Both the position numbers and the translations under genes were made by a program. Below, one piece after another: positions 31,040-31,085 of a DNA stretch of 64,000 bases; positions within the stretch are counted from its first letter, which is position 1; each line of letters opens with the position of its first letter. This DNA is from Botryllus schlosseri (lineage: Eukaryota), in NCBI GenBank assembly GCA_051294905.1, contig CM119371.1:36148001-36212000 (forward strand), written 5' to 3'. The notes below the pieces were generated by a model. The model saw only the letters and a list, made by a program, of their open reading frames with translations, searched no databases and was not told the DNA's origin.

Positions 31040-31085
31040 CTGACGTTCGCTCCTGATGAGAGTCAGTCGAAAAGCTTCGAGTGGA
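31040..31085 (+). ncRNA. Minimal type I hammerhead ribozyme motif, intact core, Penelope-associated
   Basis: ttcgctc-CTGATGA-gagtcagtc-GAAA-agct-TC-gagtgga. Stem I is 7 bp (two G-U), stem II is short, stem III is a single A-U pair with palindromic loop AGCT, and the cleavage site is UC. Upstream ACTGAC (31040-31045) is complementary to GTCAGT in loop II. Confidence 0.8.

What the first reader, a model, noticed from the sequence alone, without database searches (positions are those of the whole stretch)
31040..31085. Intact minimal hammerhead ribozyme with palindromic loop III and a loop-II pseudoknot
Seen in sequence: all core nucleotides (CUGAUGA, GAAA, UC), a 7-bp stem I, a 2-bp stem II, and a single-pair stem III inside the palindrome AAGCUU. 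Upstream ACUGAC can pair with loop II GUCAGU. Established: Penelope-like elements carry minimal type I hammerheads whose palindromic loop III allows dimeric cleavage. Here the motif lies just upstream of, and antisense to, a Penelope GIY-YIG remnant, matching the inverted 5' pLTR arrangement of Penelope insertions. Inference: this copy could still self-cleave.
Basis: partly seen in the sequence, partly recalled or inferred. Interest (0 to 1): 0.75.

Follow-up and report, generated by a model that had tools for sequence, protein, structure and literature searches.

The report
Pseudoknot-braced hammerhead in Penelope fragment
This is a real, intact hammerhead RNA motif at the flipped-over front end of a broken Penelope-type jumping gene; related elements keep a six-base-pair brace in place of its second stem, so the family likely cuts its own RNA, probably in pairs, just ahead of the start codon, but cutting is untested and no RNA from this particular copy was seen.

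Summary
Every element named is present; the motif beats 500 shuffles. It is the 5' pseudo-LTR piece of a Penelope-like element: 21 nt after the predicted cut an ATG opens the element's N-terminus (9 of 13 residues match full-length relative P0003), and a GIY-YIG remnant 69% identical to P0003 runs the other way. In 46 related loci the motif follows the ORF in 24 and sits inverted at a truncated 5' end in 13. The pseudoknot is the best-supported feature: 6 pairs in 9 of 9 hand-picked families, 5 of 6 pairs covarying. Stem II is 1 bp, not 2. The build joins the PK hammerhead (Zhan 2024) with the palindromic dimer-type stem III; I found it in no Penelope paper I could read, but Lunse 2017 was unavailable. 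That this copy cleaves is unsupported: no partner in the window, a competing fold, and 231 of 232 RNA reads at one private site come from other copies. This scan has noted the same motif many times on other DNA.

The parts
30979..31139 (+). Inverted 5' pseudo-LTR piece of a Penelope-like element: upstream region, hammerhead, start of the ORF. Right end approximate (31139-31150)
   Evidence: Contigs of other copies align from 30979 to 31139 (table 8); summed contig depth peaks at 31009-31138; same order (ORF end, motif, ATG) in related elements
31039..31044 (+). Pseudoknot 5' strand (ACUGAC)
   Evidence: Exact complement of 31062-31067; covaries across families
31045..31045 (+). One-base linker G between pseudoknot strand and stem I
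   Evidence: G in 8 of 9 families (alignment)
31046..31052 (+). Stem I, 5' strand (7 bp with 31079-31085, two G-U)
   Evidence: 4 of 5 scored pairs show double changes among relatives
31053..31059 (+). Core C3-A9 (CUGAUGA), intact
31060..31068 (+). Stem II as one pair G10.1-C11.1 closing a 7-nt loop; 31062-31067 is the pseudoknot 3' strand
   Evidence: G-C in 10 of 10, second pair in 4 of 10; same length as RF03152
31069..31072 (+). Core G12-A15.1 (GAAA), intact
31072..31077 (+). Palindrome AAGCUU: A15.1-U16.1 only as a monomer, predicted 6-bp stem III between two copies
   Evidence: 6-nt palindrome in 8 of 9 families, as AAGCUU or AACGUU
31078..31079 (+). C17 and predicted scissile bond (after 31078)
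   Evidence: Hammerhead numbering on the sequence; cleavage not shown
31079..31085 (+). Stem I, 3' strand
31100..31138 (+). First 13 codons of the Penelope ORF (MNVLFAVMLKFCT), 21 nt after the predicted cut
   Evidence: 9 of 13 identical to the N-terminus of P0003; aligned to residue 1 of several full-length relatives
30774..30978 (-). 5'- and 3'-truncated remnant of RT-EN linker and GIY-YIG N-terminal half, with an in-frame stop at 30801-30803
   Evidence: 76% identical over 72 aa to P0002, which has Pfam GIY-YIG E 1.9e-4; 69% to P0003 residues 677-748, profile E 7e-24

Best explanation
The motif is an intact type I hammerhead in a 160-base inverted pseudo-LTR fragment left by a truncated Penelope-like insertion; its stem II is one G-C pair whose loop is predicted to pair over six bases with the strand just 5' of stem I, and in transcripts of the full element it likely cuts 21 nt ahead of the start codon, probably only when two copies pair through their palindromes or the element's protein assists. 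Shown: the sequence, its place before the Penelope start codon, the head-to-head layout with a GIY-YIG remnant, and matched changes in the six-pair helix across related families. Inferred from the PK hammerhead structure: the helix stands in for helix II and holds the core in shape. Inferred from published Penelope hammerheads: the single A-U stem III blocks monomer cleavage, and the partner is the second pseudo-LTR of a tandem transcript. The structure was shaped by selection on the element family; this copy is most likely a neutrally decaying passenger that happens to keep all needed bases and is probably not transcribed at a detectable level. Odds: identity as a pseudoknot-braced Penelope hammerhead about 0.92; family cleaves under some condition about 0.65; this copy cleaves in the animal about 0.1.
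For: Motif beyond chance; 42 chance matches to the bare core pattern in viral contigs have stem I of at most 4 bp and none has a 6/6 pseudoknot. ORF start and GIY-YIG piece both match full-length RT+EN protein P0003 at 69%. Of 46 related loci (many redundant), 24 carry the motif 145-210 nt after the ORF and 13 carry it inverted before a truncated ORF, 6 distinct spacings. Pseudoknot: 8 of 9 families 6/6 Watson-Crick, one 5 plus G-U, 7 distinct sequences; 4 of 362,880 re-pairings reach the same total; 5 of 6 pairs change on both sides, 0 of 500 shuffles and no slid register approach it. Within the host's own family A31043G and T31063C (one pseudoknot pair) are both common in DNA contigs and track each other over four RNA runs: 10/148 vs 14/173, 19/87 vs 12/90, 22/33 vs 25/39, 11/59 vs 12/73 (not phased). 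PK hammerhead has the same G10.1-C11.1 pair and 6-bp PK helix replacing helix II (PMC11300833); a 1-bp stem II with pseudoknot is active and loses activity when the knot is broken (PMC3088659). Family RNA over the motif is mostly ribozyme-sense in three single-cell runs.
Against: No cleavage data. No Rfam hammerhead family passes its cut-off. Nested-structure folding prefers a hairpin that extends the pseudoknot helix and buries part of the core (-13.0 kcal/mol, z -0.55); a double hammerhead scored without the pseudoknot is -9.9 against -25.1 for the best dimer. The covariation supports the helix but cannot by itself tell brace from off-switch. The nine families were picked by hand from 47 motif rows and are related, so the permutation figure overstates significance. 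One large related family has U3 instead of C3. An Anolis Penelope hammerhead needed protein, was dispensable for insertion in vitro and left no RNA-seq ends at its cut (PMC11167929). No full-length copy from this genome was available, so that both fragments belong to one family rests on equal similarity to P0003.
Confidence: 0.8

Rival explanations
1. The six-pair helix is an off-switch or timer, not a brace: it forms first during transcription, extends into a hairpin that buries the core, and keeps the element's RNA uncut until protein binding or dimer formation refolds it.
For: The helix dominates the predicted fold in 6 of 9 families and here extends over core bases; the Anolis ribozyme is protein-assisted and uncut RNA is the insertion substrate.
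Against: The extension into the core is not conserved; in several relatives the helix closes an open loop that leaves stem I free. Loop length, the G-C pair and the helix length match the active PK hammerhead. The helix and stem I use different bases, so they can coexist.
Confidence: 0.12
2. This copy is itself active: a host transcript reads through it and it is cut, alone with the help of the pseudoknot or in trans with one of the many family transcripts.
For: It alone of 6 motif copies in the window keeps core, G-C pair, pseudoknot and palindrome; family transcripts with the same palindrome exist.
Against: Reads carry the other letter at this copy's private sites: 231 of 232 at 31123, 257 of 261 at 31119, 372 of 396 at 31087; 30 of 2,793 laid reads are 99% or more alike (3-6% of four runs, other individuals). 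With several percent divergence in its flanks an untouched core is expected often enough by chance (inference).
Confidence: 0.1
3. The 130-160 base unit is a non-autonomous retrozyme or SINE-like element that only happens to lie beside a Penelope remnant.
For: Summed contig depth over the motif is about 20-100 times that over the coding remnant; animal retrozymes derive from pLTRs (bioRxiv 10.64898/2026.07.22.740005).
Against: No tandem repeat here; the unit carries the ORF's first codons, and relatives show the same inverted layout; excess of pseudo-LTR ends is what 5' truncation gives.
Confidence: 0.05
4. The fold is kept as a binding or translation signal and cleavage is absent or irrelevant.
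For: U3 variant in a spreading related family; low in vitro activity of Penelope hammerheads; Naiads thrive without them.
Against: G5, A6, G8/A9, G12-A14 and the palindrome stay fixed while the helices covary, which is the pattern of a catalytic core.
Confidence: 0.1

Closest known systems
Minimal hammerheads (min-HHR) in pLTRs of metazoan Penelope-like elements, Cervera and de la Pena 2014 (PMC4209133)
   Same: Type I, in the pseudo-LTR, G10.1-C11.1, palindromic tiny stem III, thousands of dispersed single copies, second copy in the opposite strand at truncated 5' ends.
   Different: Published consensus has a long helix II (3 bp or more in all 56 aligned examples), an extra base after A9 and a short helix I, and reviews say tertiary contacts are lacking. 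Here helix II is one pair, there is no extra base, stem I is 6-7 bp and a 6-bp pseudoknot is conserved.
Pseudoknot (PK) hammerhead, Zhan et al. 2024 (PMC11300833, PDB 8YDC); Rfam RAGATH-1-hammerhead RF03152; pseudoknotted hammerheads of Perreault et al. 2011 (PMC3088659)
   Same: G10.1-C11.1 single pair, 7-nt loop II, six-pair PK helix with an upstream strand replacing helix II, same core; model positions 25-77 align without gaps except in stem III.
   Different: No helix IV stem-loop or A-rich linker: one base joins the PK strand to stem I. Stem III is one A-U pair with a palindrome, not a long helix. Score 18.7 bits against cut-off 56.3. Host is an animal retrotransposon.
Short-stem-III hammerhead variants of Penelope-like retrotransposons that cleave as dimers, Lunse et al. 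2017 (PMC5785218)
   Same: By title and by a review's account: palindromic very short stem III, PLE association, dimeric cleavage.
   Different: Paper not held. From recall only, its abstract mentions pseudoknots between bases before stem I and loop II in earlier hammerheads; whether its Penelope alignments include this 1-bp plus pseudoknot form is unknown to me. It may already cover this variant.
EN+ Penelope-like elements of Penelope/Poseidon type with inverted 5' copy (Craig et al. 2021, PMC8557442; Frangieh et al. 2024, PMC11167929)
   Same: RT followed by C-terminal GIY-YIG with CCHH residues, no CxxC zinc finger in the linker of P0003, pLTR that includes the ORF start, inverted 5'-truncated copy.
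   Different: In the Anolis element the ORF starts inside stem II and the cut is 26 nt after the start codon; here the cut is 21 nt before it. Clade placement not tested by a tree.
Type I hammerheads in 5' UTRs of chryso- and fusariviruses (PMC13725137)
   Same: Short helix II, cut shortly before a start codon.
   Different: Long helix III, no loop contact reported, RNA virus context; their cleavage was shown to drive cap-independent translation, which is untested here.

Membership tests
Hammerhead ribozyme, type I | Core C3-U4-G5-A6-N7-G8-A9, G12-A13-A14, A15.1-U16.1, H17 in order, open at stem I | tested here: met
Hammerhead ribozyme, type I | Three stems enclosing the core | tested here: inconclusive
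   Stem I 7 bp; stem II 1 bp plus pseudoknot; stem III one pair unless two copies pair
Hammerhead ribozyme, type I | Match to an Rfam hammerhead model at its cut-off | tested here: not met
   best RF03152 18.7 bits vs 56.3
Hammerhead ribozyme, type I | Site-specific self-cleavage after H17 | not testable with these tools
   Bench assay needed; an RNA 5' end signal 2 nt off the site in one run is only a lead
PLE min-HHR (Cervera 2014) | Located in the pseudo-LTR of a Penelope-like element | tested here: met
PLE min-HHR (Cervera 2014) | Palindromic positions 15.2-16.2 / loop III | tested here: met
   AAGCUU; palindrome in 8 of 9 families
PLE min-HHR (Cervera 2014) | G10.1-C11.1 pair | tested here: met
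   10 of 10
PLE min-HHR (Cervera 2014) | Long helix II and an unpaired base between A9 and G10.1 | tested here: not met
   One pair, no extra base against Fig. S3 rows
PK / RAGATH-1 hammerhead | Six-pair pseudoknot between loop II and an upstream strand on a 1-bp stem II | tested here: met
   PMC11300833
PK / RAGATH-1 hammerhead | Helix IV stem-loop presenting the PK strand, A-rich linker to helix I | tested here: not met
   One-base linker in all nine families
PK / RAGATH-1 hammerhead | Stable intramolecular helix III | tested here: not met
   16 model positions deleted in the RF03152 alignment
EN+ Penelope-like element | Single ORF with RT and C-terminal GIY-YIG bearing CCHH | tested here: met
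   For relatives P0003, P0004; the window holds only the ORF start and part of the EN with both cysteines
EN+ Penelope-like element | Pseudo-LTR, direct or inverted, with hammerhead | tested here: met
   24 of 46 direct, 13 of 46 inverted; window copy inverted
Penelope/Poseidon clade | No CX2-5CxxC linker finger; RT phylogeny | tested here: inconclusive
   Finger absent by eye in P0003 (criterion); no tree built, no reference sequences on hand
Non-LTR retrozyme | Tandem repeats of 150-300 bp each with a hammerhead, no coding sequence | tested here: not met
   Single unit, no tandem copy; carries ORF start

The most novel reading that the evidence does not exclude
This branch of Penelope elements has a hybrid ribozyme, a fast PK-hammerhead brace on a dimer-gated stem III, that cuts in living cells a few bases before the start codon, removing the capped leader so that the cut RNA is what gets translated or copied, as shown for viral 5'-UTR hammerheads. 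The 26 reads in run X24 that begin with the template-switch adaptor at 31081, two bases from the predicted cut on the ribozyme strand, would then be the first in vivo trace of cleavage by a Penelope hammerhead.
Probability: 0.2. Interest if true: 0.75.

Novelty: new variant of a known kind. Interest (0 to 1): 0.45.

Why it matters
What Penelope hammerheads do is an open question, partly because the tested ones barely cut and are described as lacking the tertiary contacts that make hammerheads fast. A branch that keeps a full six-pair brace, the palindrome and a cut site just before the start codon is the best candidate for an active form and makes the question testable with short RNAs and simple compensatory mutants. 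It also escapes Rfam and long-helix-II descriptors, so such elements may be scored as lacking a ribozyme. The single copy in this window matters little: it is one decayed insertion among very many.

Tried and rejected
No whole genome was held, so no genome census or phased alignment of the host's own copies. Pfam on the raw remnant frames found nothing; homology came through P0002. Viral contigs: 42 pattern matches, all read as chance (model R1 hits 1 of 42 weakly); no related ORF there. Run search listed no RNA holder. The first covariation pass missed L043 because the linker range was too narrow; redone. In alignment A2 one row (L060) is shifted one column in the pseudoknot, which lowers the counts. 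The 2-bp stem II was rejected. A TATA box about 30-37 nt before the motif appears in 4 of 9 families only and not in this copy, so no claim about the transcription start is made. Contig ends near 31122 and 31139 were considered as the two reverse-transcription starts of the Penelope 'tail', but the letters beyond 31139 read as ORF continuation, so this was dropped. Strand-switch joints in other copies (table 5) are single contigs at 80% likeness and were not used as proof. Atlas searches gave only 'animal' for the host and RT/GIY-YIG clusters for P0003. Summed contig depth is not a copy number; 'thousands' is a rough reading. Literature searches without a description of this build in Penelope elements. 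A sequence look-up in earlier scan notes found nothing.

Full report
Observation. A loose descriptor finds only this site in 64 kb; 500 dinucleotide shuffles gave 4 hits with stem I of 7 bp or more and 0 with a palindrome and stem I of 4 bp or more. Rfam gives nothing at cut-off, no hammerhead at E<=10 in 501 bases, and only RF03152 RAGATH-1-hammerhead at 18.7 bits (cut-off 56.3) in 71 bases.

Context. On the - strand, about 30978-30774 encodes a broken RT-EN linker and half a GIY-YIG domain: 76% identical to P0002 (Pfam GIY-YIG E 1.9e-4) and 69% to residues 677-748 of P0003, an 850-aa RT+EN protein. On the + strand an ATG 21 nt after the predicted cut starts MNVLFAVMLKFCT, 9 of 13 residues identical to the N-terminus of P0003; on its own this short match is weak (E 0.036), but its position agrees with relatives. 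So the ribozyme lies in a pseudo-LTR piece (30979 to about 31139) joined head to head with a truncated coding piece. Contigs from sample S1 span the junction with 0 and 3 differences (records 3 and 10); S1 may be the source of the window, so this argues against an assembly error but is not independent. Summed contig depth over the motif reaches 47,000 in X1 against 16.5 for the locus-specific contig and 360-2,200 over most of the coding piece: roughly, a family of thousands of short ends and far fewer coding pieces. The window holds five more motif copies of a second family, all damaged; one at 60818 follows a GIY-YIG C-terminus in direct orientation.

Relatives. A protein alignment fetched 43 metagenome and 3 genome-contig loci, many redundant. 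The same motif, with up to two deviations, lies 145-210 nt after the ORF in 24 of 46 and inverted within 1.2 kb before a truncated ORF in 13 of 46, at six distinct spacings. The layout here is therefore the usual inverted 5' copy described for Penelope elements (PMC8557442, passages; PMC4209133 Fig. S4 legend).

Structure. I picked 9 distinct families from 47 motif rows. All have a 9-nt G...C segment whose positions 3-8 pair with six bases just before stem I: 8 of 9 fully Watson-Crick, one with a G-U, seven different sequences; 4 of 362,880 re-pairings match the total, and none of 42 chance core matches has 6/6. On a 10-row alignment 5 of 6 pairs change on both sides, 91.7% of cells pair, 0 of 500 shuffles reach the covariation score and slid registers fall to 24-36% paired; the rows are related and hand-picked, so these are not probabilities. 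The second stem II pair holds in 4 of 10: stem II is one pair. The palindrome holds in 8 of 9, as AAGCUU or AACGUU. Inside the host's own family A31043G and T31063C, the two sides of one pseudoknot pair, are common in DNA and rise and fall together across four RNA runs; contigs that diverge after 31077 continue with a strand that would give a fully Watson-Crick stem I with A at 31052. Neither is phased.

Mechanism. By the PK hammerhead crystal structure (PMC11300833, parts 1-2 of 6) a six-pair PK helix on a G10.1-C11.1 pair takes the place of helix II, with G12 as base and the G8 2'-OH as acid; a 1-bp stem II pseudoknotted hammerhead is fast and depends on the knot (PMC3088659, passages). I infer the same here. 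Stem III is a lone A-U pair, so by the Penelope literature (PMC4209133, parts 1-2 of 4; PMC6765202, passages) cleavage likely needs two copies, as in a tandem transcript, or protein help (PMC11167929, parts 1-2 of 4). The cut would fall 21 nt before the start codon; in relatives an ATG leading into the same N-terminus follows 3-52 nt after the cut in 6 of 9 families.

Against. Folding without pseudoknots prefers a hairpin that buries core bases, and the helix could be an off-switch. One abundant related family has U3. The Anolis ribozyme was dispensable for insertion in vitro and left no RNA-seq ends.

This copy. In 3-6% of four RNA runs, 2,793 reads were laid on 30600-31300 and 30 were 99% or more alike. 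Over the motif the three single-cell runs are mostly ribozyme-sense (203 vs 15, 66 vs 39, 83 vs 12) and the bulk run is balanced (22 vs 18). At this copy's private sites the reads carry the other letter: 231 of 232, 257 of 261, 372 of 396. So the family is transcribed, this copy is not seen; the animals sequenced may lack the insertion. No partner with the same palindrome lies in the window. One lead: in X24, 26 reads have a 30-base adaptor, which I recognise from recall as the template-switch oligo, directly before 31081 on the ribozyme strand, two bases past the predicted cut. It appears in 1 of 4 runs among the 24 rows shown (195 not shown), could be few molecules, a transcription start or a switching artefact, and the table of shared ends was empty.

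Comparison and novelty. Penelope hammerheads, their palindrome and inverted layout are known. The 56 examples in Cervera's Fig. S3 (supplement parts 1-2 of 3) all have helix II of 3 bp or more, the main text has no word 'pseudoknot', and two reviews say these motifs lack tertiary contacts (PMC7761336 and PMC6155905, passages). The brace is known from PK and other hammerheads, there with helix IV and a long stem III. I found the combination in none of eight searches, but Lunse 2017 and Arkhipova 2017 are not held, and their figures and supplements could cover it. Also seen: PMC13725137 (abstract and passages), PMC10085705 (passages), bioRxiv 2026.07.22.740005 (part 1 of 5; supplements closed). 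Earlier scan notes report the same motif repeatedly in this genome and in others; my covariation work preceded reading them, and they led me to Zhan 2024 and RF03152, which I then checked.

Verdict. Interest 0.45.

Noticed in passing
L044 296-340 (+), L047 1319-1365 (+), L048 152-198 (+), L087 3259-3303 (+), 2440-2475 (-), 6070-6105 (-): In 4 of 7 related loci scanned, a histone 3' stem-loop-like hairpin (Rfam RF00032, best 33.1 bits vs cut-off 34, E 3.9e-6) follows the hammerhead by 9-14 nt: 6-bp stem, UUUC or UUUU loop, ACCCA/ACCAA flank and a purine tract resembling the histone downstream element (label recalled) in L044, L047, L048. It also matches ORF codons TAFFKA in L047 and L087. Absent from the window's family. 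One search found no paper on it.
   Followed up: partly
window 31081 (run X24): 26 RNA reads start with a template-switch adaptor directly before 31081 on the ribozyme strand, two bases past the predicted cut; unexplained offset.
   Followed up: partly
window 5727-5777 (-), 5941-5991 (+), 54473-54523 (+), 55920-55969 (+), 60784-60831 (-): Five damaged copies of a second family with the same build and an AAUAUU-type palindrome; the first two form a back-to-back pair.
   Followed up: partly
window 60953-61153 (-): GIY-YIG C-terminal remnant of a second Penelope family, followed in direct orientation by the damaged motif at 60818.
   Followed up: partly
L046, L049-L058, L062-L063, L068-L085: An abundant related family has U at core position 3 with G8 kept, across many copies including inverted ones.
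   Followed up: no
L087 2472-2524 (-): The predicted cut falls inside an in-frame AUG (A|UG) that opens the ORF N-terminus; in L043 and L050 the AUG lies 3-4 nt after the cut, inside stem I.
   Followed up: no
window 30525-30733 and from 31163: Other high-copy repeats flank the fragment: one with 14-bp perfect inverted ends that probably truncates the coding piece, one starting right after the pseudo-LTR piece; both have many RNA reads from other copies.
   Followed up: no
L087, L088 (contig CAWUFB020000001.1), L086: Animal-type Penelope elements lie in contigs filed as bacterial MAGs, most likely host DNA contamination.
   Followed up: no
window 41627-43273 (-): Intronless 548-codon BTB-BACK-Kelch reading frame; GDP-mannose dehydratase exon at about 59046-59510 (-).
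   Followed up: no
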